From Steroidobacteraceae bacterium (GTDB lineage Bacteria; Pseudomonadota; Gammaproteobacteria; Steroidobacterales; Steroidobacteraceae), in the NCBI GenBank assembly GCA_035300345.1, contig DATGVM010000022.1, positions 27,365 to 91,364 of the forward strand: a stretch of DNA of 64,000 bases. The letters run 5' to 3'. A program made the position numbers and the translations under genes. Below are positions 616 through 32,084 of the stretch, piece after piece. Numbering within the stretch: position 1 is the first letter of the stretch; each line of letters begins with the position of its first letter. The notes beneath the pieces are model-generated. The model was given only the letters and a program-made list of their open reading frames with translations, searched no databases and had not been told where the DNA came from.

Positions 616-3600
616 TTGTGGGCAATATCCCCGCCCTTAGTCGTATTATGGAAACTCGTGTCCAATAGCTTGATAGCAATCGTTGGGATGGCGTTCCGGT
701 TTCCCGGCGATTTGGCGATCGAGCGTGATCTGTGGCGGGCGCTCCGGCGCGGGGATGATCTGGTAGGCCGTATCGGACCAGAACGATGGGCGACCGAAGT
801 GATGCAGCATCCCAAGCGGGCGGAAGCGGGACGCAGCATCACCTATGCGGCGGGGGTACTGTCCCGCATAGACGAATTTGATGCCGGCTTTTTCGGTATC
901 TCTCCGCGCGAAGCCGCTTGGCTCGATCCGCAGCAGCGCCTACTGCTTGAGTTGACCTGGGAGGCCATGGAGGCCGGCGGGCAGGTGCCTTCGCGGCTTG
1001 CGCGCTCCGATTGCGCTGTATTTGTCGGCATTTCCGGCGTCGACTATGGCATGCGCGCGATGGACGATTTCGCCGCATTGACGGCCCATTCCATGACCGG
1101 CAACACGCTCAGCATTGCGGCCAATCGCCTTTCCTATGTGTTTGATCTGCATGGACCCTCGGTGGCCGTCGACACAGCTTGTTCGTCTTCCCTAGTAGCC
1201 CTGCACCAGGCCTGCAACAGCCTGCGGACAGGCGAGGCTTCGACGGCGCTGGTCGGCGGAGTCAACCTGCTGCTTCATCCATACCCCTTCATCGGTTTTA
1301 CCAAGGCTTCCATGCTCTCAGCCAGCGGTCGCTGTCGCGCGTTCGATGCCGCAGCCGATGGGTATGTACGCGCCGAGGGTGGGGCCGTCGTTGTGCTAAA
1401 GCCCCTGGACAAGGCATTGGCAGATGGCGATGCCATTCAGGCCGTCATCCTCGCCACGGGCATCAATACGGACGGTGGCAGGAAGACGAGCATCACGATC
1501 CCCAGCGGTGAAGGGCAAGTGGAGCTCTTGAAGGAGGTGCTCGGCAGGTCCGGGCTCTCCGCCGACGAGGTGGATTATGTAGAAGCCCACGGCACCGGCA
1601 CTGCGATTGGCGATCCTATAGAGGCGGCAGCCATCGGCGAGGTCTACGGTCGCCACGCTGGGCGCGTCCAGGCTCTCCCCATCGGATCGATCAAGACTAA
1701 TCTCGGACATCTCGAATCCGCATCAGGCATGGCGGGGCTAATCAAGACGATCCTGGTTCTGAAGAATCGCGCGCTACCTCCCTCCCTGCATTGGACGACG
1801 CCGAATCCGCATATCGACTTCGCCGGACTCAATCTCGAGGTCGTCACACGTCTCCGTTCCCTGGTGAAGCCGGGCCGCAGGCCTCTTGCGGCGGCGGTCA
1901 ATTCCTTTGGCTTTGGCGGAGCGAACGCACATGTGGTGCTGCAGGAATTTCGAGCCCGAAGGCGTTCGCCGCGGCGGATTAAGGCCAGCCACCCACCGCT
2001 GTTTCTGTCGGCACGTACGCCGCAGGCCTTGCGCGATTTGGCGGGACGCTACGCGAAGCTGTTGAAGCAAATGCCATCCGCGTATTACGACATCGCTCAT
2101 GGTGCCGCCCATCGCCGCGAACGGCTCGAGCGGCGCCTGGTGCTACCGTCGTGCAGTCCCTCGGAACGTGACAAGCGCCTCGGGGATTTTGCCAAGGGCG
2201 CTACGGTGCCGCAAGTCATCGTGGAGGATGCCCTTGCCCAGCCCGGCAAACTGGCATTCGTCTACTCTGGCAACGGTGCCCAGTGGCTTGGCATGGGGCA
2301 GAGACTCCTGTCTGAGTCGCCGCGCTTCGCTGCCCTGCTGGCCGAGCTCGACGAGCGCATCAATACACAGGCGGGATTCTCGATCCTTGCGGAACTGCAA
2401 GCGGATCAGAAGCACTCGCGGTTTGAGGATACGACCGTCGCGCAGCCGCTTCTCTTTGCGATCCAGGTGGCGCTGACGATACTGTTGCGCGAGCGCGGCA
2501 TCGAAGCCGACGCCGTGGCGGGCCACAGTGCAGGCGAAGTCGCTGCCGCCTGGGCGTCGGGGGCTCTGAGCCTCGATCAGGCTACGACGGTTATCTGCGC
2601 ACGCAGCGGCGCACAGGGCCGAACGCGCGGTGCCGGCCGCATGGCGGCGGTTGGACTTCCTGAGGTTGACGCGCGAGAACTGATCGCGACCGAGCAGCTG
2701 GCCGGGGTAGAGCTCAGCGGCGTTAACAGCCCGGGTAACGTCACACTGTCCGGAAATCTCGATGCCCTGCAGCGCCTCGGAGCAGTGCTCAGCCAGCGCA
2801 ATATTTTCTTTCGGCTGCTTGAATTCGACTACGCCTTTCACAGTCGCGCTATGAATCTGATCGAAGACGATCTCAAAGCGCGCCTGGCAGACCTTAGGCC
2901 GGAATCTGTGAGCGAACCAAAATTCGTATCCGGGGTGACGGGCAAAATGATGCCTGGCGCCGCGCTTGGCGCGACCTACTGGTGGCGCAATGTGCGCGAG
3001 CCAGTGCGTTTTGATCGAGCCATGTCGGCTCTGGCGGAACTCGGCTGCCGTGTTTTCGTAGAGATCGGGCCGAACGCCATTCTGCAACGCTACATGAGCG
3101 AGTGTCTTGCCTCGGCGAGCGTTAACGGCCGAGTCCTACCCACCTTGCGGAGAAGCGAAGATGGGACTGCCGGGGTTGAGGCCGTAGCGCTGAGAATACA
3201 GTTGCTTGCGGATGCGACGCGGCTCGAGTCCTATTTCACGCAGCCAGGCCGGCCGGTCCGGTTACCCAACTATCCCTGGCAGCGCGAACGTCACTGGCAT
3301 CCACGCACCAGCGAAGCCTATGCCCTGATTGAGCGAACACGGGTGCATCCGCTCTTAGGCTGGAGACTCAAGGATGCCGCCGCCGCCTGGGAGAACAGTC
3401 TCGATCCAGAGTTCTTTCCGTGGCTCGCGGACCATAAAGTGGGGGACGCCGTCGTGCTTCCCGGCGCCGCGTTTGCAGAGCTCGCATTGGCCGCGTCGCG
3501 CGCCCACTTCGGCGGGCCGCTGCATGAGTGCGAGGAACTGAATATACTTGTTCCCATCGTATTCGATGGCGAACATGCCCGCAGTGTCCGCTTCGATCTG

Positions 3601-6600
3601 TCGGTGCGCGACGGAAGTTTCCAGATCCAGAGTCGCCAACGACTCAGCGACGATGAGTGGACGCTCAATGCGGCGGGCCGGTTGCGCCTGGCGTCCGGTG
3701 GGGTAGAGCCAGCACGCGCGATCGACGATCCGCACGGCGCCAGCGATGCGGTGGTAATCGATCGTGCCACTCACTACCGGCTGACCGGCCTACTGGGCCT
3801 CAATTACGGGCCGTCCTTCCAGGGATTGCTGCGCGCCGAGGTCCGCGGCCAAGTCCTGTCGGCAAGCGTCCAGTTGCCGGCCAACGTGTCGGAAACCGCA
3901 CACCAATTCCTGATCCACCCGGCGTTGCTTGATGTGTGTTTCCAGTCGCTCGTGGATTTCTTTCACGCCGATATTGACCCACACCGCGCGGTACCGGTAC
4001 TGCCGGTCAAGTTCGGGCGCCTGCGCTATTACTCCGATGCGCCCGTGGTGCGCTTCCGTGCGGCCCTCCGGCGCCGCAATGAACGCTCTCTGCTGGCCGA
4101 CTTCGAGCTCCTCGACGCCTCCAATCGTATCGTGGCGACAGTGAGCGACTGCCGCTTCCGGGCGGCACCGATGCGCCGGAGCGATCAAGTGCAACCCGCA
4201 TGCTGGACGATCGTGCCGCACTTGCAGCCTCACGCTTCGGAGCAATCGCGTACTGATGTGGCTCCCAGCGCGCAACTGGCCGAGCGCCTGCGTGCGTGGT
4301 TCGATCGTGAAGAGCCCTTATTGCTGCGTCATGCCTACTTCAAATCGTCGTTGCCTCTTTTTGAGGCATTGGCGGTCTCGTTCGCGCGCGACGCGTTCCA
4401 GGATTTGTTCGCGAAGCGGGGAGGGTGGGTGCAGCGCTCGCTTACGCATCCCGAAAGCGTCGAGGAGGCTTGCCGTCCATTCTTCCGCTGGCTTGGCAAC
4501 ATGTTGCGCGACGAGGGCCTGCTCGTTGAGCGCTCAACCGGCACCTGGCAGCTCGTCGCGACGGATCTCCCGTCGGCTCAGAGTATCTGGCGTACCTTGC
4601 TGCGCGATTGTCCCGCCAGTCTGCCGGAACTTGTCTTTGCCGCCCGCGTCGGACGCCGTCTCGCCGCACTGCTCACCAAGGCGAGCGAAGCCGAGCGATT
4701 GACGGAGGCCTTGCAGATCAGCCACCAGGCCGAGGCGCTGTTTCAGGATTCGTCCAGTTACCTGGGTACGCGTTTGGGGGTTCAACAACTCCTGTGCAGT
4801 GTGGCCGAACAATGGCCGCAACATCGGCGATTGCGCATACTTGAAATCTCGGCAGGGGCCAGCCGTGTCGTACAGCAGGTTCTGGATTGTTTTCCCGAGG
4901 ACCGGCTTGACTACGTCATCGCGCATCCCGATGAGCCCATCCGCGCGCGTCTGCAAACCGAGTTTTCAAGGCGGCAGTGCGTGCGTATTGCAAACGTTAG
5001 CACCGACAGTCTGGAGTTGACGTCGGATGCCCGCCTGCCCGATTCCTTCGACGTTATTGTGCTGAGACACTGGCTGCATCGCACGCCCCACCCGGTGGGC
5101 GTGCTGGCTGCCGCTCGGCGAAAGCTGGCGCTCGGTGGTCTATTGGTGTTGGCCGAGCGCCATCCTGACCTCGGCGCGGACTTCGTTTGCGGGATCGATC
5201 CCCGGTGGTGGCAGGAGAGCGCACACGGGGAGCCGATCTCCCGTCTGCAGCCGCCCGCCGCTTGGGAGGCCGCGCTCGCGAAGCAGGCCTACGTCGATAT
5301 TGAGATTTGTCGCGAGCCCGCGAGCGCGAATCTGTCTGAGGGTGCCTATATCCTTCTGGCAAAGCGCCCCGCAGAGGAGGCGGTTACGGTCACTGAACCG
5401 GCCTGCGCCCGCTGGCTCCTGATGTGCGACGGAGCCGCGCCCTGGTCCCTGCTCGGCGATCGCGTACAGCGCCTGCTGGAATCACGTGGTCAACGAGTCC
5501 TGAGTGTGGGTGCCGGCGCGACCACGGAGGCGGTACTGGCGGCGGCACGCGGTACCCTGGGAACGATTGACCATGTCGTCTACATGAGTGGTCCTGTCGA
5601 CAGCAGCCTGCCTCCCGACGACGCTCCCTGGCACCCCATGGATAGCGACGGCATCGTTGGTGCGCTGCAGCTGGTTCAGGCCGTCGGCCGCAATCCATCC
5701 CCACCGCGGCTGTGGCTGGTAACCGCCGGCGGGGCACTGGTCGAACGGCTGCCCGATGGAGTTCCCGGCAATTCGACCCAGGGCGCGCTATGGGGTTTTG
5801 GCCGGGTCGTCATGAACGAATACCCGGCGCTCGAGTGCACGCTGGTCGACGTGGATATTGACCCGGCCAGTGAAGAGGCGGCCGGTCGGTTGCATTCGGA
5901 GTTGCTCCAGCCCGACGGCGAGCAGGAAATCATGCTGGGTGCTCACGGCCGCTATGTGGCGCGTATGCTCGGCGTGGCGGATCAAGCATCGGTCGAGCCC
6001 GGGAATAAGGCCACACGCTTCCGGCTCGATTTTCATACGCCCGGGCGGATACGCAACCTGCAGTGGCGGCCGCAGCCCGAGCGGCCACTCACTGATGAAG
6101 AGATCGAAATTCGTGTCGCCGCAACGGGACTGAATTTCCGCGACGTCATGTATCTGCAAGGCCTGTTGCCGGACGATGCCATTGAAGGGGGATTTGCCGG
6201 TGCCAGCCTGGGGCTTGAATTCGCCGGCGTCGTCAATCGCGTGGGGCGTGTTGGCGGTGAATTTTCAATTGGTGACTCTGTCATGGGCTTCGCGCCGGCG
6301 TGTTTCGCCAGCCACGTCATCACCACGGCCAAGGCGATCTCGCACAAGCCGGCCGACTGGTCGTTCGAGGCGGCAGCCACGGTGCCGACGGTTTTTTTCA
6401 CGGTGTATTACGCTCTCAAGCATCTAGCGGATCTGCAGGCTGGCGAGCGCATCCTGATTCACGGTGGCGCGGGCGGCGTGGGAATTGCCGCCATTCAGTT
6501 TTCGATGCATCTCGGCGCCGAGGTGTACGCGACCGCGGGAAGTGACGAGAAGCGCGATTTCGTCGCGCTGTTAGGCGCCGACCATGTGCTTGACTCGCGC

Positions 6601-8286
6601 AGTCTGGCCTTTGCCGATCAGATTATGGCGATGACAAACGGCGAAGGTGTTGACGTGGTTCTGAATTCGCTCGCCGGTGAGGCTCTGCGGCGCAGCCTCG
6701 ACGTCCTAAAACCCTTTGGCCGTTTCCTTGAACTGGGGAAACGGGATTTCTTCGAAAACACGCCCATTGGACTGCGGCCGTTTAAGAACAATATCAGCTT
6801 CTTCGGCATCGATGCCGACCAATTGCTCATCGCACGTCCGGCACTGGCCGGTCGGCTGTTTCGTGAGGTCATGGCGCTGTTTCGGGAGAAAGTGCTGTTC
6901 CCACTGCCTTATCGACTGTTCCCGGCGACTAACATTGTCGATGCCTTCCGCACCATGCAGCAGGCACAACAAATCGGCAAAGTGATCGTCGGAATTGAAG
7001 GGGTGAGCGTCGCCATTGAAGACACGTCTGCCCGCGCAATTCCGGTTCGCTTTGAATCGCGTGCCCGCTGGCTCGTCACTGGGGGAATATCCGGCTTTGG
7101 CCTGGAATCAGCCCGCTGGCTTGCCGAGCGAGGCGTTGGCGATCTGGTGCTGGTGGGCAGGCGTGGCATGCGCACACCCGGCGCTACCGAAGCCGTGCGC
7201 ACCCTGGAGGCACTGGGGGCCCAAGTCAGTGTGATCGCCTGCGACGTCAATGATCGCAGCGCCGTGCAGTCGATGCTGAAAGAGATACGCAATTCGCGCA
7301 CGCCGCTGACGGGAGTGCTCCACGCCGCAATGGTGCTGGATGACGCACTTATCGGCAACCTGGATGCGCAAAGGCTGCGCAATGTGCTCGCGCCAAAGCT
7401 CCTCGGCGCCTGGCATTTGCATGAACTGACGCTCGATATACCGATTGAACACTTCGTGCTGTACTCCTCGATCACCACGATGATCGGCAATCTGGGACAG
7501 GCGAATTATGTGGCCGCCAATGCCTCCCTCGAGAGCCTCGCACTGCTGCGCCGGGCCGTCGGGCTCCCGGTCACATGCATTGGCTGGGGTCCGATCAGCG
7601 ACGCGGGCTTGCTGACGCGAAATGAGGCCGTCAAGGACGCTCTTGCACAGCGCCTCGGCGCCAGCTCGATGAGCGCGCGCGCCGCGCTGGCGTTGCTTGA
7701 TCGCTTACTGCCGCGCAGCACCGGGACCATCGCGGTGGGCAATTTCGACTGGCCCACGCTCGCACGTTTGCTGCCTTCGGCCAGGGCAGCGCGCTTTGAG
7801 TGGCTGCGCCGCCGTGCAGGGCCGACTGCTGATACGAGCGCGGTGAGCGATGATATTCGCGTTATGATCGCGGGCAAGACACGCGGGGAGGCCCTGCGCA
7901 TCGCCCAAGAGCTGGTCGTTCAGGAGGTCGCGCAAGTGCTGTGCGTTGCTCCTGACCGCGTCGATCCGCATCGCTCGGTGCACGACCTGGGAATGGATTC
8001 GCTGATGGCCGTGGAACTGGTTATGGGGCTGGAGAAGCGCTTTGGACTTGAGTTACCGGCCATGCTGCTTAACGAAGGCATTACCGTCGAAAAGGTCGCC
8101 GCGCGCGTGATAGACCGGCTTTTGCGCACTGATGAACCAGTCAAGGCGGAGGCAGGCGATCGGCTGGATATCGTGGCCGCCACTCTTGCGACGCAACACG
8201 GCGAGACCATGGCGGCTGACGATTTGGCCAAGACCCTCGAGCAGGCGCGCAGCCTGGAGCCCGGCAAGGTGCGGTTGATTCGATGA
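616..8286 (+). CDS. type I polyketide synthase, FAS-like KS-AT-DH-(MT-like)-ER-KR-ACP (RkpA/WcbR-like capsule lipid synthase)
   Basis: 2556-aa ORF. KS motifs IAIVGMAFRFPG, DTACSSSLVALHQA, HGTGT. AT GHSAGEVAAAW. DH HPLLG and LADHKVGDAVVLPGAAF. MT-like region RILEISAGAS. ER LIHGGAGGVGIAAIQ. KR WLVTGGISGFGLESARWLAERG. ACP LGMDSLMAVEL. No TE domain. Alternative in-frame GTG start at 658. Confidence 0.93.
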   Translation: MWAISPPLVVLWKLVSNSLIAIVGMAFRFPGDLAIERDLWRALRRGDDLVGRIGPERWATEVMQHPKRAEAGRSITYAAGVLSRIDEFDAGFFGISPREAAWLDPQQRLLLELTWEAMEAGGQVPSRLARSDCAVFVGISGVDYGMRAMDDFAALTAHSMTGNTLSIAANRLSYVFDLHGPSVAVDTACSSSLVALHQACNSLRTGEASTALVGGVNLLLHPYPFIGFTKASMLSASGRCRAFDAAADGYVRAEGGAVVVLKPLDKALADGDAIQAVILATGINTDGGRKTSITIPSGEGQVELLKEVLGRSGLSADEVDYVEAHGTGTAIGDPIEAAAIGEVYGRHAGRVQALPIGSIKTNLGHLESASGMAGLIKTILVLKNRALPPSLHWTTPNPHIDFAGLNLEVVTRLRSLVKPGRRPLAAAVNSFGFGGANAHVVLQEFRARRRSPRRIKASHPPLFLSARTPQALRDLAGRYAKLLKQMPSAYYDIAHGAAHRRERLERRLVLPSCSPSERDKRLGDFAKGATVPQVIVEDALAQPGKLAFVYSGNGAQWLGMGQRLLSESPRFAALLAELDERINTQAGFSILAELQADQKHSRFEDTTVAQPLLFAIQVALTILLRERGIEADAVAGHSAGEVAAAWASGALSLDQATTVICARSGAQGRTRGAGRMAAVGLPEVDARELIATEQLAGVELSGVNSPGNVTLSGNLDALQRLGAVLSQRNIFFRLLEFDYAFHSRAMNLIEDDLKARLADLRPESVSEPKFVSGVTGKMMPGAALGATYWWRNVREPVRFDRAMSALAELGCRVFVEIGPNAILQRYMSECLASASVNGRVLPTLRRSEDGTAGVEAVALRIQLLADATRLESYFTQPGRPVRLPNYPWQRERHWHPRTSEAYALIERTRVHPLLGWRLKDAAAAWENSLDPEFFPWLADHKVGDAVVLPGAAFAELALAASRAHFGGPLHECEELNILVPIVFDGEHARSVRFDLSVRDGSFQIQSRQRLSDDEWTLNAAGRLRLASGGVEPARAIDDPHGASDAVVIDRATHYRLTGLLGLNYGPSFQGLLRAEVRGQVLSASVQLPANVSETAHQFLIHPALLDVCFQSLVDFFHADIDPHRAVPVLPVKFGRLRYYSDAPVVRFRAALRRRNERSLLADFELLDASNRIVATVSDCRFRAAPMRRSDQVQPACWTIVPHLQPHASEQSRTDVAPSAQLAERLRAWFDREEPLLLRHAYFKSSLPLFEALAVSFARDAFQDLFAKRGGWVQRSLTHPESVEEACRPFFRWLGNMLRDEGLLVERSTGTWQLVATDLPSAQSIWRTLLRDCPASLPELVFAARVGRRLAALLTKASEAERLTEALQISHQAEALFQDSSSYLGTRLGVQQLLCSVAEQWPQHRRLRILEISAGASRVVQQVLDCFPEDRLDYVIAHPDEPIRARLQTEFSRRQCVRIANVSTDSLELTSDARLPDSFDVIVLRHWLHRTPHPVGVLAAARRKLALGGLLVLAERHPDLGADFVCGIDPRWWQESAHGEPISRLQPPAAWEAALAKQAYVDIEICREPASANLSEGAYILLAKRPAEEAVTVTEPACARWLLMCDGAAPWSLLGDRVQRLLESRGQRVLSVGAGATTEAVLAAARGTLGTIDHVVYMSGPVDSSLPPDDAPWHPMDSDGIVGALQLVQAVGRNPSPPRLWLVTAGGALVERLPDGVPGNSTQGALWGFGRVVMNEYPALECTLVDVDIDPASEEAAGRLHSELLQPDGEQEIMLGAHGRYVARMLGVADQASVEPGNKATRFRLDFHTPGRIRNLQWRPQPERPLTDEEIEIRVAATGLNFRDVMYLQGLLPDDAIEGGFAGASLGLEFAGVVNRVGRVGGEFSIGDSVMGFAPACFASHVITTAKAISHKPADWSFEAAATVPTVFFTVYYALKHLADLQAGERILIHGGAGGVGIAAIQFSMHLGAEVYATAGSDEKRDFVALLGADHVLDSRSLAFADQIMAMTNGEGVDVVLNSLAGEALRRSLDVLKPFGRFLELGKRDFFENTPIGLRPFKNNISFFGIDADQLLIARPALAGRLFREVMALFREKVLFPLPYRLFPATNIVDAFRTMQQAQQIGKVIVGIEGVSVAIEDTSARAIPVRFESRARWLVTGGISGFGLESARWLAERGVGDLVLVGRRGMRTPGATEAVRTLEALGAQVSVIACDVNDRSAVQSMLKEIRNSRTPLTGVLHAAMVLDDALIGNLDAQRLRNVLAPKLLGAWHLHELTLDIPIEHFVLYSSITTMIGNLGQANYVAANASLESLALLRRAVGLPVTCIGWGPISDAGLLTRNEAVKDALAQRLGASSMSARAALALLDRLLPRSTGTIAVGNFDWPTLARLLPSARAARFEWLRRRAGPTADTSAVSDDIRVMIAGKTRGEALRIAQELVVQEVAQVLCVAPDRVDPHRSVHDLGMDSLMAVELVMGLEKRFGLELPAMLLNEGITVEKVAARVIDRLLRTDEPVKAEAGDRLDIVAATLATQHGETMAADDLAKTLEQARSLEPGKVRLIR

Positions 8287-9617
8287 GCAGCAAGCGCTAC
8301 GGCCTGGTCGACAAGGCGCGCGACGAGCTCGTGCGGCGTTTTCTCGATCGCAAGAGCGCTGACCACGCCGTACATGCGCCACCTCAAGCTGCTCAGACGG
8401 GGAGCAAGTGGCTCAATATTCCGGAGGCTTACAGCCGCTTTGATCGCTTTCCCGGATACGAGAGACTCCTCGTGCCGCGGGTGGCTGCCGACCGGCTGGG
8501 CCTGGCCAACCCCTTTTTCAAGGCGCACGACGGTGTCGCCGGCGCAACCACCCTGATCGATGGGCGAAGCTACGTAAATTTCTCCTCGTATAACTATCTG
8601 GGGCTCGCAGGCCACCCGCGCGTCAACAAAGCGGCCACCGCCGCGATTGAGCGCTATGGCACTTCAGCCTCTGCCAGCCGCCTCGTGGCCGGGGAACGGC
8701 CAATTCAACGTGAGCTCGAAAAGGCACTAGCAGCCTTCTACGAAGTCGAAGATTGCGTAGTCTTCGTCAGCGGCCACGCGACCAACGTGACCACTATTGG
8801 TTATCTGTTTGGGCCGAAGGACCTTGTCGTACACGATAGCCTCATACACAACAGCGTGCTGGAAGGGATCAAGCTTTCCGGCGCCGCGCGCCGCTCATTT
8901 CCGCACAACGATACCGCCGCTCTCGACACGATTCTGAGCGAGATCCGCGGCCTGTTTGAGCGCGTACTCATCGTTGTCGAGGGACTGTACAGCATGGACG
9001 GCGACATCGCCGAGCTGCCTCGGCTAATCGACATCAAGCAGCGCCACAAGGCCTTCCTGATGGTCGACGAGGCGCATTCGCTTGGCGTGTTGGGTGAATC
9101 CGGCCATGGCATCCGCGAGCATTACGGCATTGCCGGCAAGGCAGTGGATATCTGGATGGGCACGCTCAGCAAGGCTCTGGCCGGCTGTGGCGGCTTTATC
9201 GCCGGCGAGCACGCACTGGTGGAGCATCTCAAGTACGCCGCCCCTGGGTTTGTGTACAGTGTCGGCCTGGCGCCACCACTGGCGGCCGCTTCTCTCGAGG
9301 CGCTGAAAATTATGATTGAAGAGCCGGAACGCACAAGGCGGCTGCACGAGCGAGCAAGGCATGCTCACGAGCTGGCGCGCGTGCGCGGCATCAATATTGG
9401 ACTGTCGCAAGGGTATGCGGTCATTCCAGCGATTGTCGGCAGCTCGCTCAAGGCTGCCAAGATCTCGAATCAGCTCTTCGAACGCGGCATAAACGTGCAG
9501 CCAATAGTGTATCCGGCGGTCGATGAGCGAGTCGCAAGGCTTCGATTTTTTGTCAGCACCATGCACACTGAAAAGCAGATTGCTTCCGCCATCGATGTGC
9601 TGGCCGGTCTGCTGTGA
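8283..9617 (+). CDS. PLP-dependent alpha-oxoamine synthase family acyltransferase (BioF/KBL/Spt-like; RkpG/WcbT-like)
   Basis: 444 aa. Motifs YNYLGL, VSGHATN, DEAHSLGVLG and the PLP-lysine motif GTLSKALAGCGGF. Its ATG overlaps the PKS stop codon (ATGA at 8283-8286). Confidence 0.9.
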   Translation: MSSKRYGLVDKARDELVRRFLDRKSADHAVHAPPQAAQTGSKWLNIPEAYSRFDRFPGYERLLVPRVAADRLGLANPFFKAHDGVAGATTLIDGRSYVNFSSYNYLGLAGHPRVNKAATAAIERYGTSASASRLVAGERPIQRELEKALAAFYEVEDCVVFVSGHATNVTTIGYLFGPKDLVVHDSLIHNSVLEGIKLSGAARRSFPHNDTAALDTILSEIRGLFERVLIVVEGLYSMDGDIAELPRLIDIKQRHKAFLMVDEAHSLGVLGESGHGIREHYGIAGKAVDIWMGTLSKALAGCGGFIAGEHALVEHLKYAAPGFVYSVGLAPPLAAASLEALKIMIEEPERTRRLHERARHAHELARVRGINIGLSQGYAVIPAIVGSSLKAAKISNQLFERGINVQPIVYPAVDERVARLRFFVSTMHTEKQIASAIDVLAGLL

Positions 9618-10753
9618 CTAATTCACTGAGCGAGATGCCTCAGCGACTGAGTGGCGTTTGGCGCTGGCTGCTGGGCCACCGACTCTTCCTGTATACGGTT
9701 GCTATTCCGACGGCACTTTCAATCCTCTATTTTGGACTTATTGCGTCGGATATTTATATTTCAGAATCCCGCTATATAGTCCGTAGCTCTGAACAACAGA
9801 GCAGCTCGGCACTCGGTTTGGTATTGAAGGACACGGGGTTGTCCCGCGCTCAGGACGATTCCTACTCTGTGGAGAATTTCATTCTCTCCCGCGATGCCCT
9901 GAGAGCGCTCGACGAGCAATTGCATCTGAAAGCTGCGTTTTCGGCACCGTCAGTCGATTTCATCAAGCGCTTCGCGAGTCTGGGCAGAAATGATGGGTTG
10001 GAAGAATTTGTCCTTTATTACCAGAACATGGTGGATGTACAGATTGAGTCGGATTCTTCAATTACCACCCTAACGACCCGTGCATACACTGCCGATATGG
10101 CTCGCACTATCAATGCGAGATTGCTTGATCTGGCCGAGAATCTGGTAAATCGACTCAACGAGCGCGCCAACCGCGACATGATCCGCTACGCGGCGGGCGA
10201 GGTCGCCCAGGCGGAAGCGAAGGCCAGAGAAACCAGCAGTGCCTTGGCGCAATACCGCAACCAGAATGGAGTCATCGACCCGGAGCATCAGTCCAGCATT
10301 CCTCTGGAGCGAATAGGCAAGCTGGAGGATCAGCGGATTGCCACAAAGGCTCAACTCGAAGTCCTTGAACAGTTCGCCCGAGATAACCCACAACTTCCCG
10401 TGCTGCGCCAGCAGGCAAAGCTACTTGACCAACAAATTGCCGCGGAGACCAGCAGTGTGGCCGGTACGGGCGGTCGTTCGTTGGCAGGTAAAGCAGCCGA
10501 ATACGAACACTTGGCATTGGACAAGGCTATTGCAGATAAGATGCTGGAAAGCGCCATGGGTACGCTAGCGCTGGCGCGTGATGAAGCACTACGCCAGCAG
10601 CTTTATCTTGAGCGAATCGTCCAACCTGGTTTGCCTGATAGGGCCATGGAGCCGCGTCGATTGAGAAACATCAGCGCGACCCTCCTATTAGGGCTGATCG
10701 TGTGGGGTGTGCTGTCGCTCACCGTGGCTGCCGTCAAAGAACACCGGGACTAA
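9614..10753 (+). CDS. kpsE: capsule polysaccharide export inner-membrane protein (KpsE/RkpR-like, PCP-3)
   Basis: 379 aa with an N-terminal TM (LFLYTVAIPTALSILYFGLIA), a long coiled periplasmic region and a C-terminal TM. It sits immediately upstream of kpsM/kpsT. The GTG start overlaps the upstream stop; an alternative ATG is at 9635. Confidence 0.8.
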   Translation: MTNSLSEMPQRLSGVWRWLLGHRLFLYTVAIPTALSILYFGLIASDIYISESRYIVRSSEQQSSSALGLVLKDTGLSRAQDDSYSVENFILSRDALRALDEQLHLKAAFSAPSVDFIKRFASLGRNDGLEEFVLYYQNMVDVQIESDSSITTLTTRAYTADMARTINARLLDLAENLVNRLNERANRDMIRYAAGEVAQAEAKARETSSALAQYRNQNGVIDPEHQSSIPLERIGKLEDQRIATKAQLEVLEQFARDNPQLPVLRQQAKLLDQQIAAETSSVAGTGGRSLAGKAAEYEHLALDKAIADKMLESAMGTLALARDEALRQQLYLERIVQPGLPDRAMEPRRLRNISATLLLGLIVWGVLSLTVAAVKEHRD

Positions 10754-10759
10754 CCGAGC

Positions 10760-11548
10760 ATGTCCGACGTGGCCAGCCTGATTCCTTCCGCGAAGATCCA
10801 GGGTCGAATTATCGGGGCATTGTTAAGGCGCGAGATTCTGACCCGCTACGGGCGCCACAACATCGGTTTTATGTGGTTGTTCGTCGAGCCGATGATGTTC
10901 ACCTCTGGGGTTCTGATCTTGTGGGCATCGCTCGGGCTTCATAAGGTTAGGCTGCCTATGGTCGCCTTCGCGCTCAGCGGTTACGGTACAGTTCTCTTGT
11001 GGCGCAATACCATCAATCGTTGCGGGGACGCGTTGGAGCCAAACCGGGCGCTTTTGCACCATCGCAATGTGCGTGTCATCGATTTATTTGCAGCGCGTGT
11101 AGTTCTTGAAATCGCCGGCGCATCGATGTCCCTGTTTATTCTTGAAGCGGCACTGACGGCTACCGGTTTGGTGACGGCCCCGGACGACGTCTTCAAGATG
11201 ATTATTGCTTGGGTGCTATTGGCGTGGTTTGCCGCAGACATGGCGCTGATTATTGGTTCGATCTCAACGCTCAGCGAATCCGCGGAGCGCGTCTGGCATG
11301 TACTGAGTTATTTGTTTCTGCCGTTGTCGGGGGCGTTCTTTATGGTCGGCTGGCTGCCGAAATATGCGCAGTCTTTGGTGCTCTGGATCCCGACAGTAAG
11401 CTGCACGGAACTACTGCGCGAAGGACTTTTCGGCGTCGGCGTAATTGCCCACTACAGGATTGGTTATCTCCTTGTGGTCAATACAGCACTGATGCTGCCG
11501 GGCTTGCTTCTGATCAAGTACATCGCCGCGCGGGTGGAAGGCGAATGA
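10760..11548 (+). CDS. kpsM: capsule ABC transporter permease (ABC-2 type)
   Basis: 262 aa, multi-TM ABC-2 permease-like sequence ([18 protein letters not shown]). Its stop overlaps the kpsT start. Confidence 0.85.
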
Positions 11549-12195
11549 TCAGCCTTAGGGGGGTGAGCAAACAGTACCGCGTAAGAAGCGGTATGTACAC
11601 TGTGTTTGAGAATTTGGATTTGCGTATTGAGCCCGGAGAGAAAGTGGGAATCCTGGGCCGAAATGGCGCCGGAAAATCAACTTTGATTCGTTTGATTAGC
11701 GGCGCCGAGTTGCCTACGCGAGGGAGAGTAGAACGCGAAATGTCGGTCTCGTGGCCGTTGGCTTTCGGTGGGGCCTTTCAGGGTAGCCTGACCGGCGTAG
11801 ACAATATTCGGTTCATTTGCCGCGTTTACAACGCCGATATCGCGGTCGCCATCCCCTATGTCGAGGCATTCTCTGAATTGGGCGTCTACCTTCGGGAGCC
11901 CGTCAAGAACTATTCTTCCGGCATGCGTGCACGCCTGGCGTTTGCCATTTCTATGGCTGTGGAATTTGATTGTTTCCTTATTGATGAAGTAATTGCCGTA
12001 GGCGACCATCGTTTTCACCAAAAGTGTCAACATGAGTTGTTTGAAAAGCGCCAGGACCGGGCGATGGTTATCGTTTCCCACGACGCACGCAACATCCGCG
12101 AACATTGCAAGCGCGCCAGCGTTTTCCATCAGGGAACGCTGCGCCACTTTACTGATGTGGATGGGGCTTACAATTTTTATAACGAGAACAGTTAG
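11545..12195 (+). CDS. kpsT: capsule ABC transporter ATP-binding protein
   Basis: The start [11 protein letters not shown] at 11545 overlaps the kpsM stop. Walker [10 protein letters not shown], signature [12 protein letters not shown], Walker B FLIDE. The track ORF 11209.. is an in-frame upstream extension inside kpsM. Confidence 0.9.
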
Positions 12196-25282: not shown

Positions 25283-25328
25283 CGTGCCGGGTATTTCTGG
25301 AAGGGGCAAGGAATCTGGGCGAACTCGC

Positions 25329-26522
25329 ATGCAGAAAGTAACCGGATTATATTTTCGACGGCTTTTCCGCTTTGCCCCGGGCATGGTCGCAATTGTCGCC
25401 GTGCTGAGCGGCTGCGTAAGCAATCCAGGCTGGCTCGCCGCTTCTGGCCCGACGCGGGCAAAGGTCAGCAGCGGCGTATCGAACATCCAAGCCTCGATCC
25501 AGGTCGTCACGATTTCCGACGCCGTGGCGCGGCGGGTCGTGGATGCCGGGGATCACGACCAGTTTTCGACGGCCTTTGGCGACAAGGCGCCTGTCGGTTT
25601 CATTGTCGGCGCGGGCGATGTGCTGGAAGTGTCCGTGTGGGAGGCGCCGCCAGCCGTGCTGTTTGGCACCCTGGCGATTGATGCCGGCGGCACGCTTGGA
25701 ACATCGCGGCAAACCACTATCCCCGAGCAGATGGTTGCGCAGGATGGGACGATCAGTGTGCCGTTTTGCGGGTCCGTGCCGGTCGCCGGCCGTTCTTCGC
25801 AGCAGATTCAAGCGGATATCGTGACTTGCCTGCAGGGCAAGGCCAATCAGCCGCAGGTCCTGGTACGGGTGACGCACAACGCAACTTCGAACGTTACGGT
25901 GGTCGGAGAAGTGGGCCAGAGCTTACGCATGCCGCTTACGGCCAAGGGCGAGCGCGTGCTCGACGCCCTAGCCGCCGCCGGTGGTACGCGCAATCCAGTT
26001 GACAAGACTTCGATCCAACTTACCCGTGGCGGCGACGTTCTGGGAATGCCGCTTGCCAGGGTGATCCGCGATCCAAAGCAGAATGTAGTACTGCAGCCCG
26101 GCGATGTGATGACTGCACTGTTCCAGTCGAACAGCTTCACCGCGCTGGGCGCGAGCGGGAGGAATGATGAGATCAATTTTGAGGCCCAGGGCATCAGTCT
26201 GGCGCAGGCCATGGGTCGCATGGGTGGCCTCGTTGATACACGCGCCGATGCGCGGGGCGTGTTCATTTTCCGTTTTGAGAACCCAGCGGCCTTGCCTGAT
26301 GGAGGCAAAGGCTTGCCACGCACGCCCGAGGGCAGGGTGCCGGTTGTCTATCAGGCTGACCTGAAGGACCCCGCGACCTTTCTGGTGGCGCAGGATTTCC
26401 CGGTGCGCGACAAGGACGTCATTTATGTGGCCAACGCCGGGGCGGCGGACCTGTTCAAATTCCTGAATGTCCTGACCTCCTCGGTGTACACCATCGCTGT
26501 ATTTAAGAACCTCCAATTCTGA
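25329..26522 (+). CDS. outer-membrane polysaccharide export lipoprotein (OPX; Wza/KpsD-like)
   Basis: Lipobox AVLSGC. Poly_export-like GAGDVLEVSVWE followed by SLBB-like repeats (LQPGDVM, VRDKDVIYV). The track start is 25284; the ATG at 25329 gives a proper signal peptide. Confidence 0.85.
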   Translation: MQKVTGLYFRRLFRFAPGMVAIVAVLSGCVSNPGWLAASGPTRAKVSSGVSNIQASIQVVTISDAVARRVVDAGDHDQFSTAFGDKAPVGFIVGAGDVLEVSVWEAPPAVLFGTLAIDAGGTLGTSRQTTIPEQMVAQDGTISVPFCGSVPVAGRSSQQIQADIVTCLQGKANQPQVLVRVTHNATSNVTVVGEVGQSLRMPLTAKGERVLDALAAAGGTRNPVDKTSIQLTRGGDVLGMPLARVIRDPKQNVVLQPGDVMTALFQSNSFTALGASGRNDEINFEAQGISLAQAMGRMGGLVDTRADARGVFIFRFENPAALPDGGKGLPRTPEGRVPVVYQADLKDPATFLVAQDFPVRDKDVIYVANAGAADLFKFLNVLTSSVYTIAVFKNLQF

Positions 26523-26905: not shown

Positions 26906-28054
26906 GTGCCCCTGATAGATGTGACCCGGCTCTGCGGGCGCCTGCTCGCTGGTCGATTGCCTACGGGCGTAGACCGGGTGAGCCTGGAGTACGTGAGGCA
27001 TTTCCGCCGCGCCCGCGCGCTGGTGCGCTACGGCGGGCGCTGGGTCGTCCTTGGGGCGTCCGATTCCGCACGCATGTTCGATACGCTGCTCGATCCTGGC
27101 AAGGAATCTGGCCGCGTGATCCGCTGGTCCGTGGGCAGCGGCTTTGCGCTCAACTGGCGCCCCACCGATGCGCGAGTGCTGCTGAATACCGGGCACAGCG
27201 GGCTGGAGCGAGCCGACTACGCTGTGCGCATCCGCCATCGTCAGCTGCGGGCGGTGTTTTTCCTCCACGATCTGATCCCCATCACTCATCCCGAGTACAG
27301 CCGCCCCGGGGAGGCCGACAGCCACCATCGGCGCCTGCACACCATGCTGTCCGCCGGCTCCGCGATCATCGTCAATTCACGCTCAACGCTTCGGGCACTG
27401 GAAGCCCACGCTGCGGCCCACGCGTTGCGCTTGCCGCGCTGCGAGGTGGTGCCGCTCGCGCCAATGCGATTGCCGTTGCCCGCAAGCGAGCGACCCCTGG
27501 AGGCCCGGTACTTCGTCGTCCTCGGCACCATCGAGCCGCGCAAGAATCACTGGATGCTGCTGCATCTGTGGCGGCAGCTGGCGGATGAACTGGGGCAGGC
27601 GGCACCACGCCTGGTGCTCATCGGCCAGCGTGGCTGGGAGTGCGAGCAGGTCACCGATCTGTTGGAGCGCTGCGAGTCCTTGCGTGGGCTGGTGATCGAA
27701 GAGCCCAAGTGCAGCGACGCCAGGCTGGCGACCTGGCTGCACCATGCGCAGGCGCTGCTCTTTCCTTCTTTTGTCGAGGGCTACGGGATGCCGCTGCCGG
27801 AGGCGCTGACGGCCGGCGTGCCGGTGATTGCGAGCGATCTGGCCGTGTTTCGGGAAATTGCCGATGAAATCCCGGACTATCTAGATCCGCTCGACGGTGC
27901 TGGCTGGAAGGCGGCGGTGCTGGACTATGCCAGGCCGGACAGTCGGCGGCGCCGGGCGCAGGTGGAGCGCCTGGGCCGGTTCCAGGCTCCGAGCTGGGAG
28001 AGTCATTTTTCGGTGGTGGAAGACTTGATCGAGCACATCGGTGGGCATGACTGA
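26906..28054 (+). CDS. glycosyltransferase family 4
   Basis: 382 aa. Motifs LGTIEPRKNH, IGQRGWECE, FPSFVEGYGMPLPEALTAGVPVIASD. Confidence 0.8.
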   Translation: MPLIDVTRLCGRLLAGRLPTGVDRVSLEYVRHFRRARALVRYGGRWVVLGASDSARMFDTLLDPGKESGRVIRWSVGSGFALNWRPTDARVLLNTGHSGLERADYAVRIRHRQLRAVFFLHDLIPITHPEYSRPGEADSHHRRLHTMLSAGSAIIVNSRSTLRALEAHAAAHALRLPRCEVVPLAPMRLPLPASERPLEARYFVVLGTIEPRKNHWMLLHLWRQLADELGQAAPRLVLIGQRGWECEQVTDLLERCESLRGLVIEEPKCSDARLATWLHHAQALLFPSFVEGYGMPLPEALTAGVPVIASDLAVFREIADEIPDYLDPLDGAGWKAAVLDYARPDSRRRRAQVERLGRFQAPSWESHFSVVEDLIEHIGGHD

Positions 28055-31071: not shown

Positions 31072-31079
31072 GCCCGCGC

Positions 31080-32084
31080 ATGTTAGCCCATGGCAGGGCG
31101 CTGGTGACGGGCGCGGCCGGATTCATCGGCGGGCATCTGGCGCAGCGCCTGCTGGCTGAGGGCTGGCAAGTCAGGCTGCTGGTGAAAAACAATCAGCCCC
31201 TGCCGCCCGCGCTGCATCAGGGCTGCGAGGTCGTCACGGCAGATCTGAGTGTGGCTGCCGGAGTCGGTGAAGCGGTGCGCGGTGTGGATGTGATCTTCCA
31301 CTGTGCCGCCAACGTGCGCACCTGGGACACGTGGGACGCCTACCAACGCGACAACGTGACCGGCGTGGCCCATCTGCTCGACGCCATCGCCCGCGAGAAT
31401 CCACGACTGCCGCGCCTGGTGCATTTCTCCAGCGTGGATGTCTATGGTTTCCCGCTCCAGCCCTGCGACGAAGCGGCACGGCCCGATGGCGGGGAGTTTG
31501 GCTACGGGCGCAGCAAGTGGCAGGGAGAACAGCTGGTCGCCGAGCGCTGCGCAGAGGCATCGATCCCCTATACGATCCTGCGGCCCGCCAATGTCTTCGG
31601 TCCCGGCGGGCAGTTCGTGTCGCGCATCGGCGAGGCCCTGGCCTCCGGTCTGATGCTGACGGTGGACGGCGGGCAGGTGAACGCAGGGATGATCTACATC
31701 GACAATCTGCTCGACTATGTGCTGTGGGCGGCGGGCGCCGAGCAGGCCGTCGGCCGTGTCTACAACGTCCGCGACGCTTACGATCTGAGCTGGGCCGAAT
31801 TTGTCCGCGCGCTGCGCCGGGGAATCAACGGTCGCGGCCGGGTGCTGGACCTGCCCTTCGGCGCCGCTGAGTTCTTCGCACGCCTTTGCGAGGCCTTCTA
31901 CCGTATTGTCCTGCCGAGGCGCGAGCCGCTCCTGCACCGGCTGCTGGTGCGCCAGTTCGGGCGCAGCTGCGGACACAGCGCGGTGCGGATCCGCGCGGAC
32001 AGCGGCCTCGTCGGCCGCATCGGCTTCGAGGAGGGGATGGAGCGCTCGGCACGCAGTTTTCTGGCCGCCCGGGCGAGCCGCTGA
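31080..32084 (+). CDS. NAD-dependent epimerase/dehydratase (SDR; RkpH/WcbP-like position)
   Basis: 334 aa. Rossmann motif VTGAAGFIGGHL at residues 9-20 and catalytic YGRSK. Confidence 0.85.
   Translation: MLAHGRALVTGAAGFIGGHLAQRLLAEGWQVRLLVKNNQPLPPALHQGCEVVTADLSVAAGVGEAVRGVDVIFHCAANVRTWDTWDAYQRDNVTGVAHLLDAIARENPRLPRLVHFSSVDVYGFPLQPCDEAARPDGGEFGYGRSKWQGEQLVAERCAEASIPYTILRPANVFGPGGQFVSRIGEALASGLMLTVDGGQVNAGMIYIDNLLDYVLWAAGAEQAVGRVYNVRDAYDLSWAEFVRALRRGINGRGRVLDLPFGAAEFFARLCEAFYRIVLPRREPLLHRLLVRQFGRSCGHSAVRIRADSGLVGRIGFEEGMERSARSFLAARASR

What the first reader, a model, noticed from the sequence alone, without database searches (positions are those of the whole stretch)
616..9617. FAS-like type I PKS translationally coupled to an alpha-oxoamine synthase at the head of a capsule-export operon
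Seen in sequence: a single 2556-aa KS-AT-DH-(MT-like)-ER-KR-ACP synthase has no thioesterase domain. Its stop overlaps (ATGA) the start of a PLP-dependent BioF/Spt-type enzyme that retains the lysine motif SKALAGCGG. That gene in turn overlaps kpsE, and kpsM overlaps kpsT, so this reads as one tightly coupled operon. Established knowledge (from memory): the same PKS-plus-oxoamine-synthase pairing occurs as RkpA/RkpG in the Sinorhizobium meliloti rkp-1 region and as WcbR/WcbT in the Burkholderia pseudomallei capsule locus. To my knowledge the lipid product has never been structurally defined. Inference: the ACP-bound fully reduced acyl chain is released by decarboxylative Claisen condensation with an amino acid. 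That would give a sphingoid-like amino-ketone lipid serving as capsule anchor or primer.
Basis: partly seen in the sequence, partly recalled or inferred. Interest (0 to 1): 0.65.

Follow-up and report, generated by a model that had tools for sequence, protein, structure and literature searches.

The report
PKS-made sphingolipid genes heading capsule locus
A giant fatty-acid-synthase-like enzyme and its partner enzyme at the head of a capsule gene cluster belong to a known gene pair (rkpA/rkpG, wcbR/wcbT, sgaA/sgaB) shown in 2025 to make very-long-chain sphingolipids; it is an ordinary new member, and whether that lipid anchors the capsule is still untested.

Summary
ORF 616..8286 encodes a 2556-aa KS-AT-DH-(pseudo-MT)-ER-KR-ACP synthase with no thioesterase. 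Its stop overlaps (ATGA) the start of a 444-aa PLP alpha-oxoamine synthase (AOS). That gene overlaps kpsE, and kpsM overlaps kpsT.

The AOS is not BioF. It scores below every NCBIfam cut-off, a genuine bioF lies on another contig, and in a tree it sits in a separate clade with S. meliloti RkpG and Burkholderiaceae and Pseudomonas homologues.

It is about 58% identical over its full length to PfSgaB of Pseudomonas fluorescens MYb115. Peters et al. 2025 (PMC12134224) showed that PfSgaB is an L-serine-specific serine palmitoyltransferase. With the iterative PKS PfSgaA it yields C24-C28 sphinganines and phosphoglycerol sphingolipids.

The capsule-anchor role remains an inference. New support comes from KpsS: sequences from PKS-AOS genomes form one clade, apart from all other KpsS sampled.

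This genome lacks the usual KDSR-type reductase and LtaS-like gene. Beside kpsS it carries a CerR-like reductase and a FemAB-like acyltransferase instead.

The scan has met this gene pair before, in at least nine other genomes. Verdict: new member of a known kind.

The parts
616..8286 (+). Iterative, fully reducing type I PKS of RkpA/WcbR/SgaA type, with no thioesterase. Domain coordinates in nt: KS+linker 673-2121, AT 2257-3177, DH 3346-4170, pseudo-MT 4840-5172, ER 6094-6990, KR 7066-7599, ACP 7912-8109. The likely true start is GTG 658.
   Evidence: Pfam; motifs. RkpA, the Caballeronia PKS and the Pseudomonas plasmid PKS have the same architecture and a similar length of 2497-2541 aa. It is the only type I PKS in the genome.
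8283..9617 (+). PLP-dependent alpha-oxoamine synthase of the RkpG/WcbT/PfSgaB clade. Predicted serine acyltransferase that off-loads the ACP-bound chain as a 3-keto-sphinganine.
   Evidence: ATGA overlap. Below all NCBIfam cut-offs. In a clade with RkpG and others at SH-aLRT 100, apart from BioF, KBL, ALAS and SPT. About 58% identical to PfSgaB. H189, D262, H265, K297 and R418 are conserved.
9614..10753 (+). KpsE-family (PCP-3) inner-membrane export protein.
   Evidence: TIGR01010, 1e-99. GTGA overlap with the AOS stop.
10760..11548 (+). KpsM-type ABC-2 permease.
   Evidence: PF01061; NF050053, 4.8e-20, below its cut-off.
11545..12195 (+). KpsT-type ABC ATPase. The true start is ATG 11545, overlapping the kpsM stop.
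   Evidence: ABC_tran hit begins at residue 113 of the longer ORF. ATGA junction.
25284..26522 (+). KpsD/Wza-like outer-membrane polysaccharide export (OPX) protein.
   Evidence: Poly_export + SLBB; NF011658.
28041..29108 (+). Single-module KpsC-like beta-Kdo transferase homologue.
   Evidence: PF05159, 4.4e-35. Only two PF05159 genes exist in the genome.
29941..31071 (-). FemAB_like / Acetyltransf_6 acyltransferase, a candidate N-acyltransferase for the amino-lipid. The + strand ORF 30253..31086 is its antisense shadow.
   Evidence: Pfam PF04339 4e-13 and PF13480 1.6e-6. A 55%-identical orthologue sits in the same GT-KpsC-like-GNAT-SDR-KpsS block of a Rhodocyclaceae MAG. Not related to the spt-linked ceramide synthase.
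31080..32084 (+). Extended SDR (epimerase family), a candidate 3-keto reductase of the lipid (CerR-like or OleD-like).
   Evidence: Best NCBIfam hit is OleD 2-alkyl-3-oxoalkanoate reductase at 120 bits, below its cut-off. Reciprocal best hits with the SDR genes that lie next to spt in five sphingolipid loci, 24-41% identity, two of them over only 51-75 residues.
32085..33359 (+). KpsS (RkpJ-type) first beta-Kdo transferase.
   Evidence: PF05159, 3.7e-69. 47% identical to S. meliloti RkpJ. Falls in the KpsS clade restricted to PKS-AOS genomes.

Best explanation
This is an SgaA/SgaB (= RkpA/RkpG = WcbR/WcbT) type lipid module. The single-module PKS works iteratively. It uses malonyl units with full KR/DH/ER reduction and builds a very long saturated acyl chain that stays on its own ACP, because there is no thioesterase. 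The translationally coupled AOS then acts as a serine palmitoyltransferase. The PLP-bound L-serine attacks the acyl-ACP thioester and CO2 is lost. The chain leaves as a very-long-chain 3-keto-dihydrosphingosine (inferred from the 58%-identical PfSgaB; not shown for this protein). The ketone is then reduced, here probably by the CerR-like extended SDR beside kpsS. The amine is possibly N-acylated by the FemAB-like acyltransferase. The resulting sphingolipid most likely serves as the membrane lipid on which RkpJ-type KpsS and the KpsC-like enzyme start the Kdo linker of the sulfated capsule, which KpsMT-KpsE-KpsD export. My odds are about 0.8 for sphingoid-base synthesis and about 0.5 for the lipid being the covalent capsule terminus.
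For: Architecture and junctions. The AOS forms a distinct clade with RkpG, apart from BioF, KBL, ALAS and SPT, and its PLP residues are conserved. It is about 58% identical over its full length, including the N-terminal extension, to PfSgaB. [quoted passage not shown] Deleting sgaA or sgaB abolishes the C24-C28 sphinganines, and the strain also makes lipids 154 Da heavier that the authors propose are phosphoglycerol sphingolipids (PMC12134224). That paper's homologue list includes Burkholderia, Sinorhizobium, Nitrosomonas, Caballeronia and Methylovulum, genera whose AOS sequences cluster with the window's. The residue before the conserved Arg is Ser, as in SPT and BioF, not Val or Thr as in the glycine-specific KBL and ALAS (the rule itself is from memory). 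Link to the capsule: the PKS-AOS pair is followed by kpsE/M/T/D or kpsS in most related loci. PF05159 is found in 12 of 17 PKS-AOS genomes against about 36 of 383 others. All 24 KpsS from PKS-AOS genomes fall on one side of a single branch (UFBoot 85, SH-aLRT 80; one change in 88% of bootstrap trees). An LtaS-family gene sits beside kpsS in 14 of 22 such genomes; this could explain the phosphoglycerol head group, the same head-group chemistry as the phosphatidylglycerol terminus that carries the E. coli Kdo linker (PMC13721041). Published: rkp-1 makes 'a specific lipid carrier' and is required for KPS secretion (PMC4881576; title cited).
Against: Nothing was measured for this organism, which is an uncultured MAG. 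PfSgaB identity is 58%, and that sequence was machine-read from a PDF with a few dropped letters. The MYb115 paper treats the lipids as free secondary metabolites and does not connect them to a capsule. Five of 17 PKS-AOS genomes in the sample show no PF05159 gene; one of these is only 71% complete. The lipid therefore cannot be tied strictly to the Kdo linker. This genome lacks the KDSR-type SDR and the LtaS-like gene of the characterised system. The substitute reductase and acyltransferase occur in only 2 of 23 PKS-AOS genomes. The reductase assignment rests on 24-41% reciprocal hits, some of them short. The branch that defines the KpsS clade has only moderate support, and kpsS and the lipid genes could simply travel together by transfer. 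From memory and unverified here: the S. meliloti 1021 poly-Kdo anchor was reported as a phosphoglycerol carrying a hydroxy-C28 fatty acid, not a sphingoid base.
Confidence: 0.5

Rival explanations
1. The pair makes very-long-chain sphingolipids that remain free outer-membrane lipids or secondary metabolites. They sit beside capsule genes only for co-regulation or co-transfer, and the capsule itself is built on ordinary (lyso)phosphatidylglycerol.
For: Peters et al. detected free sphinganines and PG-sphingolipids and described them as secondary metabolites with effects on a host. Five of 17 PKS-AOS genomes show no PF05159 gene. From memory, the S. meliloti anchor was reported as a glycerophospholipid.
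Against: The operon fuses the AOS stop to the kpsE start. A KpsS subtype is confined to PKS-AOS genomes. rkp-1 is reported as required for KPS secretion. wcbQ, wcbS and wcbT score like other capsule genes in a Tn-seq screen (PMC4631991).
Confidence: 0.27
2. The lipid is a transient carrier or export cofactor. It would be needed by KpsMT/KpsE to start or release chains but would not be retained on the mature polymer.
For: The older literature uses the term 'lipid carrier'. From memory, rkp-1 mutants accumulate intracellular polymer. The genes are tightly coupled to kpsE/M/T rather than to the glycosyltransferases.
Against: No enzyme that would cleave such a carrier is evident. The ABC-dependent capsules studied so far keep their lipid terminus (PMC13721041).
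Confidence: 0.1
3. The AOS uses an amino acid other than serine (alanine, glycine or threonine). The product would be a 1-deoxy or otherwise different amino-lipid rather than a true sphingoid base.
For: Specificity cannot be read with certainty from sequence, and identity to PfSgaB is only 58%. The AOS scores about equally against KBL, SPT and BioF structures.
Against: Active-site blocks are nearly identical to those of the serine-specific PfSgaB. The position that is Val or Thr in the glycine-specific enzymes is Ser.
Confidence: 0.1
4. The AOS is a BioF paralogue serving biotin synthesis, and the PKS supplies a pimeloyl-like precursor.
For: The best NCBIfam name is bioF (350 bits), and public annotations call relatives '8-amino-7-oxononanoate synthase'.
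Against: The score is below the bioF cut-off of 426. A genuine bioF (472 bits) lies on contig C25. The tree separates the clades with full support. The PKS has full reducing domains and sits in a capsule context.
Confidence: 0.01

Closest known systems
PfSgaA / PfSgaB / PfSgaC of Pseudomonas fluorescens MYb115 (Peters et al., Nat Commun 2025, PMC12134224)
   Same: An iterative single-module PKS without TE is followed by an AOS. The window AOS is about 58% identical over its full length and belongs to the same clade as a 77%-identical Pseudomonas plasmid copy. That copy sits in a kps-type locus (PKS, AOS, dioxygenase, KpsC, GNAT, LtaS, SDR, KpsS).
   Different: No KDSR-type SDR (SgaC) and no LtaS-family gene exist in this genome. 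An extended SDR and a FemAB-like acyltransferase lie beside kpsS instead. Products are unknown here.
rkp-1 region of Sinorhizobium meliloti (rkpU, rkpA, rkpG, rkpH, rkpI, rkpJ)
   Same: RkpA has the same domain order and a similar length. The rkpA stop and rkpG start overlap by 4 nt. RkpG is 50% and RkpJ (KpsS) 47% identical to the window proteins. The region is required for K-antigen export.
   Different: RkpH (a classical SDR) and RkpI (LtaS-like) have no orthologues here. Here the pair is fused to kpsE-M-T in one operon. The polysaccharide genes (sulfotransferases, methyltransferases) also differ.
wcbP-Q-R-S-T of the Burkholderia capsule locus (seen here through a Caballeronia insecticola plasmid)
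   Same: The PKS is 37-57% and the AOS 56% identical, and they are followed by kpsD-M-T-E homologues.
   Different: An LpxC-like gene is inserted between the PKS and the AOS, and SDR and LtaS genes lie upstream. No KpsS or KpsC lies within 16 kb in that plasmid.
Canonical bacterial sphingolipid pathway (Spt, ACP, bCerS, CerR of Caulobacter and Sphingomonas)
   Same: The chemistry is the same: serine plus acyl thioester gives 3-KDS, followed by acylation and reduction. The window SDR is the reciprocal best hit of the SDR genes next to spt.
   Different: The AOS lies outside the SPT clade (28-36% identity). The acyl donor is a PKS-borne chain rather than acyl-ACP or acyl-CoA. The FemAB-like acyltransferase is not the spt-linked ceramide synthase.
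E. coli / Neisseria group 2 capsule terminus (phosphatidylglycerol-type lipid plus beta-Kdo linker made by KpsS and KpsC)
   Same: KpsS, a KpsC-like protein, KpsM, KpsT, KpsE and KpsD are all present.
   Different: KpsS belongs to a separate clade found only with the PKS-AOS module. KpsC has one module instead of two. The lipid acceptor is predicted to differ, but this is untested.
Fungal PKS plus AOS pairs (fumonisin Fum1/Fum8, sphingofungin)
   Same: The logic is the same: a highly reducing PKS chain is released by an AOS to give a sphingoid-like amino-lipid, followed by a KDSR-like reductase (cited in PMC12134224).
   Different: These are eukaryotic toxin pathways that use other amino acids. 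No sequence comparison was made here.

Membership tests
SgaAB / RkpAG / WcbRT-type PKS-AOS sphingolipid module | Single-module KS-AT-DH-ER-KR-ACP synthase of about 2500 aa without a release domain | tested here: met
   Pfam domains. RkpA, the Caballeronia PKS and the Pseudomonas plasmid PKS have the same order and similar lengths. 58 residues follow the ACP.
SgaAB / RkpAG / WcbRT-type PKS-AOS sphingolipid module | AOS gene immediately downstream of the PKS on the same strand | tested here: met
   ATGA overlap at 8283-8286. Same adjacency in 18 of 19 and 18 of 21 related loci.
SgaAB / RkpAG / WcbRT-type PKS-AOS sphingolipid module | AOS belongs to the clade of PfSgaB and RkpG, not BioF, KBL, ALAS or SPT | tested here: met
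   Tree of 68 sequences, clade support SH-aLRT 100. About 58% identical to PfSgaB and 50% to RkpG.
SgaAB / RkpAG / WcbRT-type PKS-AOS sphingolipid module | L-serine-specific condensation giving 3-KDS, with very-long-chain sphinganine products | not testable with these tools
   Shown only for PfSgaB and MYb115. Here only motif conservation could be checked.
SgaAB / RkpAG / WcbRT-type PKS-AOS sphingolipid module | KDSR-type classical SDR (SgaC/RkpH/WcbP) in the locus | tested here: not met
   tblastn with RkpH and the Caballeronia SDR finds only weak generic SDR hits elsewhere in the genome. An extended SDR sits beside kpsS instead.
SgaAB / RkpAG / WcbRT-type PKS-AOS sphingolipid module | LtaS-family membrane protein (RkpI/WcbQ) beside kpsS | tested here: not met
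   Only one weak hit on another contig (28%, 79 bits). The gene is present in 14 of 22 other PKS-AOS genomes.
BioF (8-amino-7-oxononanoate synthase, TIGR00858) | Score above the curated cut-off, and the sole bioF-like gene of the genome | tested here: not met
   350 bits against a cut-off of 426. A genuine bioF at C25 scores 472 bits. The two form separate clades.
Canonical serine palmitoyltransferase (NF047599/047600/047603) | Score above the curated cut-offs; membership of the SPT clade | tested here: not met
   304, 272 and 203 bits against cut-offs of 640, 500 and 670. Separated from 14 SPT or SPT-like sequences in the tree. Function may still be SPT-like, as in PfSgaB.
ABC-transporter-dependent (group 2-like) capsule system | KpsM, KpsT, KpsE and KpsD plus the KpsS and KpsC Kdo-linker enzymes | tested here: met
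   One reservation: KpsC has a single module (355 aa), and the KpsM and KpsS hits are below the equivalog cut-offs.
Bacterial ceramide pathway (Spt, bCerS, CerR) | CerR-type reductase and bCerS-type acyltransferase | tested here: inconclusive
   The SDR gives reciprocal best hits with SDRs next to spt, at 24-41% identity and over only 51-75 residues for two of the five. The FemAB-like protein has no match within 10 kb of spt, and only E 4e-8 to 7e-5 hits far from spt in 3 of 5 genomes.

The most novel reading that the evidence does not exclude
RkpJ-type KpsS enzymes start the capsule on a PKS-made very-long-chain sphingolipid instead of phosphatidylglycerol. This would tie the 30-year-old 'rkp-1 lipid carrier' puzzle to the sphingolipids found in 2025. 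In the LtaS-containing majority the acceptor would be the phosphoglycerol sphingolipid. This window would represent a second, undescribed branch. In it a FemAB-like acyltransferase and a CerR-like reductase replace the KDSR and LtaS genes, giving a ceramide-like anchor that receives Kdo directly.
Probability: 0.3. Interest if true: 0.75.

Novelty: new member of a known kind. Interest (0 to 1): 0.4.

Why it matters
The gene pair occurred in about 4% of the 400 Pseudomonadota genomes sampled here, and a published search found 6101 clusters, more than half of them in Burkholderia. Its genetics have been known since the 1990s and the chemistry of one homologue since 2025, but the two literatures have not been joined. 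If the sphingolipid is the capsule's lipid end, the standard model of ABC-dependent capsules (Kdo linker on phosphatidylglycerol) needs a second branch. That branch would cover plant symbionts, nitrifiers, methanotrophs and Burkholderia. Bacterial sphingolipid producers would also be far commoner than spt-based surveys suggest. This particular window adds one more member and an accessory-gene variant. It is not itself a tractable system.

Tried and rejected
- BioF identity is rejected.
- Homology of the FemAB-like gene to the spt-linked bacterial ceramide synthase is not supported. There is no hit within 10 kb of spt in 10 loci, and only E 4e-8 to 7e-5 hits elsewhere in 3 of 5 genomes.
- The + strand ORF 30253..31086, which I first took for a gene, is rejected as an antisense shadow of the minus-strand FemAB-like gene.
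- The idea that the window's SDR and FemAB-like genes are part of the conserved core is rejected. They occur in only 1 of 22 other PKS-AOS genomes.
- An active C-methyltransferase is rejected, because SAM motif I is degenerate across the family.
- The promoter and terminator scan gave counts no higher than shuffled sequence and says nothing about the operon.
- The primary rkp papers (PMC178947, PMC2772494) are not held, so details of the S. meliloti mutant phenotype and anchor chemistry rest on reviews or on memory.
- Full-text searches for wcbR/wcbT, rkpA/rkpG, KpsS + PKS, and oxoamine synthase + capsule found no paper that defines the capsule-linked lipid.
- No structure prediction was run. 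It would not decide substrate or acceptor.

Full report
OBSERVATION

The + strand ORF 616..8286 encodes 2556 aa counted from TTG 616. Homologues align from 'SLIAIVGM', so GTG 658 is the likelier start.

Pfam finds KS (20-393) with its linker, AT (548-854), DH (911-1185), a weak methyltransferase-like stretch (1409-1510, 31.5 bits), ER (1827-2125), KR (2151-2328) and ACP (2433-2498). Nothing follows but a 58-residue tail, so there is no thioesterase.

The catalytic motifs of KS, AT (GHSAG / YAFH, closest to the malonyl type), DH, ER, KR and ACP are intact. SAM-binding motif I is degenerate ('LEISAGAS') here and in every homologue examined, so this is a structural pseudo-methyltransferase as in animal FAS.

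- The PKS stop overlaps the ATG of a 444-aa class I/II aminotransferase-fold protein (ATGA at 8283-8286).
- That gene's stop overlaps GTG 9614 of a KpsE-family gene.
- kpsM ends in an ATGA overlap with the true kpsT start at 11545.

WHAT THE OXOAMINE SYNTHASE IS

The protein scores best against the bioF model but below its cut-off (350 against 426 bits). It is also below the cut-offs for KBL, three SPT models, ALAS and CqsA. The genome has a genuine bioF on another contig (472 bits). Solved structures of KBL, SPT and BioF/KBL-type enzymes match about equally well, at E about 1e-63 to 1e-62.

I built a tree of 68 sequences. The labelled references were E. coli BioF and Kbl, the genome's own BioF, SPTs above the NCBIfam cut-off and ALAS. 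All PKS-linked AOS fall in one clade with SH-aLRT 100, separated by a long branch from BioF, KBL, ALAS and SPT. That clade includes the window protein, S. meliloti RkpG, and Caballeronia and Pseudomonas plasmid copies.

The PLP residues H189, D262, H265, K297 and R418 are conserved, and the clade has its own signatures (S.SASR, WMGTLSK, CGG).

HOMOLOGY TO THE KNOWN SYSTEMS

A tblastn search of annotated replicons found the S. meliloti rkp-1 region. Its gene order is rkpU, a 2502-aa RkpA, RkpG (overlapping RkpA by 4 nt), RkpH (SDR), an unannotated LtaS-like RkpI, RkpJ (KpsS) and kpsF. Identity to the window proteins is 34-41% for RkpA, 50% for RkpG and 47% for RkpJ.

A Caballeronia (Burkholderiaceae) plasmid shows the order SDR, LtaS, PKS, LpxC-like, AOS, which matches the wcbP-Q-R-S-T gene order as I recall it, followed by kpsD-M-T-E. 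A Pseudomonas plasmid carries PKS, AOS, dioxygenase, KpsC, GNAT, LtaS, SDR and KpsS, plus kpsF and kdsAB. All three PKSs have the same architecture as the window's.

A PKS lies directly upstream of the AOS in two surveys:
- 18 of 19 named loci from Steroidobacteraceae, Aromatoleum, Nitrosomonas europaea, Ferrovum, Rhodocyclaceae, Methylococcaceae and others;
- 18 of 21 strong hits in a 400-genome sample of the phylum, that is 17 genomes or about 4%.

THE DECISIVE LITERATURE

A note from an earlier agent of this scan pointed to Peters et al. 2025, which I read myself. Their main findings in Pseudomonas fluorescens MYb115 are these:
- The iterative PKS PfSgaA and the AOS PfSgaB are required for C24, C26 and C28 sphinganines, which are lost in the sgaA and sgaB deletion mutants.
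- The strain also makes compounds 154 Da heavier, proposed to be phosphoglycerol sphingolipids.
- Purified PfSgaB condenses acyl-CoAs with L-serine, with a virtually exclusive preference over alanine and glycine.
- Labelled serine is incorporated in vivo.
- A KDSR-like SDR (PfSgaC) five locus tags away is proposed as the reductase.

Their cblaster survey lists 6101 homologous clusters, among them Burkholderia 3452, Sinorhizobium 241, Nitrosomonas 10, Caballeronia 8 and Methylovulum 7. These are the rkp and wcb loci and the relatives I had collected.

The PfSgaB sequence printed in their Figure S6 aligns with the window AOS at about 58% identity from residue 7 to 443, and at 77% with the Pseudomonas plasmid copy. 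The text was machine-read, and a few letters are missing.

The statement that the product was never defined no longer holds.

The paper contains no mention of capsule, Kdo, Kps, rkp or wcb. Among the papers that cite it or use its terms, none by its title or abstract links these lipids to a capsule.

IS THE LIPID THE CAPSULE'S ANCHOR?

This remains an inference. Four lines of evidence favour it:
- Operon fusion to kpsE-M-T here, and adjacency to kps genes in most relatives.
- PF05159 (KpsS/KpsC) is found in 12 of 17 PKS-AOS genomes against about 36 of 383 others in the same sample.
- In a KpsS tree, all 24 sequences from PKS-AOS genomes (alpha-, beta- and gammaproteobacteria) lie on one side of one branch, and all 20 from other genomes lie on the other. 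Support is UFBoot 85 and SH-aLRT 80. One change is needed in 88% of bootstrap trees, against a shuffled mean of 15.
- An LtaS-family gene sits next to kpsS in 14 of 22 PKS-AOS genomes. Such an enzyme could add the phosphoglycerol head group seen in MYb115. That would mimic the phosphatidylglycerol terminus to which the Kdo linker is joined in E. coli (PMC13721041).

For the KpsS tree I left out ten redundant sequences of one family, six partial hits, and one very long branch in the careful run. Nine positive rows were added from named loci chosen because kpsS lay near the module.

Reviews state that rkp-1 makes a specific lipid carrier and is required for KPS secretion.

Evidence against:
- Five of the 17 genomes show no PF05159 gene; one of them is only 71% complete.
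- The KpsS clade could reflect block transfer rather than acceptor specificity.
- From memory, the S. meliloti 1021 anchor was described as a glycerophospholipid.

I put the anchor role at about 0.5.

WHAT IS PARTICULAR TO THIS WINDOW

The genome has no orthologue of the KDSR-type SDR or of the LtaS-like protein. Beside kpsS (32085..33359) lie two other genes.

The first is an extended SDR (31080..32084). Its best family hit is the lipid 3-oxo reductase OleD, below the cut-off. It is also the reciprocal best hit of the SDR genes that flank spt in canonical sphingolipid loci, at 24-41% identity and, for two of the five, over only 51-75 residues.

The second is a FemAB-like / Acetyltransf_6 gene on the opposite strand (29941..31071). 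It is not related to the spt-linked ceramide synthase.

The same block (GT, KpsC-like, FemAB-like, SDR, KpsS) recurs at 54-61% identity in one Rhodocyclaceae MAG. That MAG is one of the eight among the 22 other PKS-AOS genomes in which no LtaS-like gene was found. An earlier agent of the scan described this 'GNAT/SDR variant' on other DNA, and my tests agree with that description.

VERDICT

The feature is real and correctly described. It is a new member of a known gene family whose product class is now known from one homologue. The scan has reported the same pair in at least nine other genomes. The open and interesting question is whether these sphingolipids are the lipid end of ABC-dependent capsules. 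That question is general to the family and is best tested in S. meliloti or P. fluorescens, not in this uncultured organism.

Noticed in passing
window 29941-31086: The + strand ORF 30253..31086 (277 aa, no family hit) is an antisense shadow. The real gene is the minus-strand FemAB_like/Acetyltransf_6 ORF 29941..31071. Its start lies only 8 bp from the divergent SDR start at 31080.
   Followed up: yes
window 28041-29108: The only KpsC-like gene in the genome has a single Capsule_synth module (355 aa). Genome-wide there are just two PF05159 genes, this one and kpsS.
   Followed up: partly
L029 (Caballeronia plasmid p2) and G075, G020, G054, G072, G202: Some PKS-AOS loci sit next to kpsD-M-T-E with no detectable KpsS or KpsC in the genome (5 of 17 in the sample, one of them only 71% complete). 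The Burkholderiaceae type has an LpxC-like gene inserted between the PKS and the AOS. These could be capsules that use the PKS lipid without a Kdo linker.
   Followed up: partly
L014 / L015 (Ferrovum MAG contig JAAGNR010000049): The same PKS-AOS-kpsEMT stretch is returned twice from one 49-kb contig, in opposite orientation and with identical match statistics. This is either an inverted duplication or a palindromic assembly artefact.
   Followed up: no
L093 (Streptomyces plasmid), H13 (Planktothrix plasmid), L092 (Bacillus mycoides plasmid): Members of the same AOS clade occur outside Pseudomonadota. One is fused into a 1612-aa protein in Streptomyces. One lies under a gene annotated as a type I PKS in Planktothrix. 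In Bacillus one sits next to a glycosyltransferase, an ABC transporter, a KS and a PPTase. None of these has kps genes in view.
   Followed up: no
G020 (L074, L080): One alphaproteobacterial genome in the sample carries two separate PKS-AOS pairs on different contigs and no PF05159 gene.
   Followed up: no
window 33503-39497: The capsule locus ends at kpsS. Trigger factor, ClpP and Lon follow. The 990-aa minus-strand ORF 35469..38441 has no family hit and overlaps the lon gene on the + strand, so it is probably spurious.
   Followed up: no
L091 (Pseudomonas sp. TMW 2.1634 plasmid pL21564-1): A complete sga/rkp-type module with KpsS, KpsC, kpsF, kdsA and kdsB is carried on a 100-kb mobilizable plasmid from a meat isolate. 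The whole lipid-plus-Kdo-linker unit can therefore move horizontally.
   Followed up: partly
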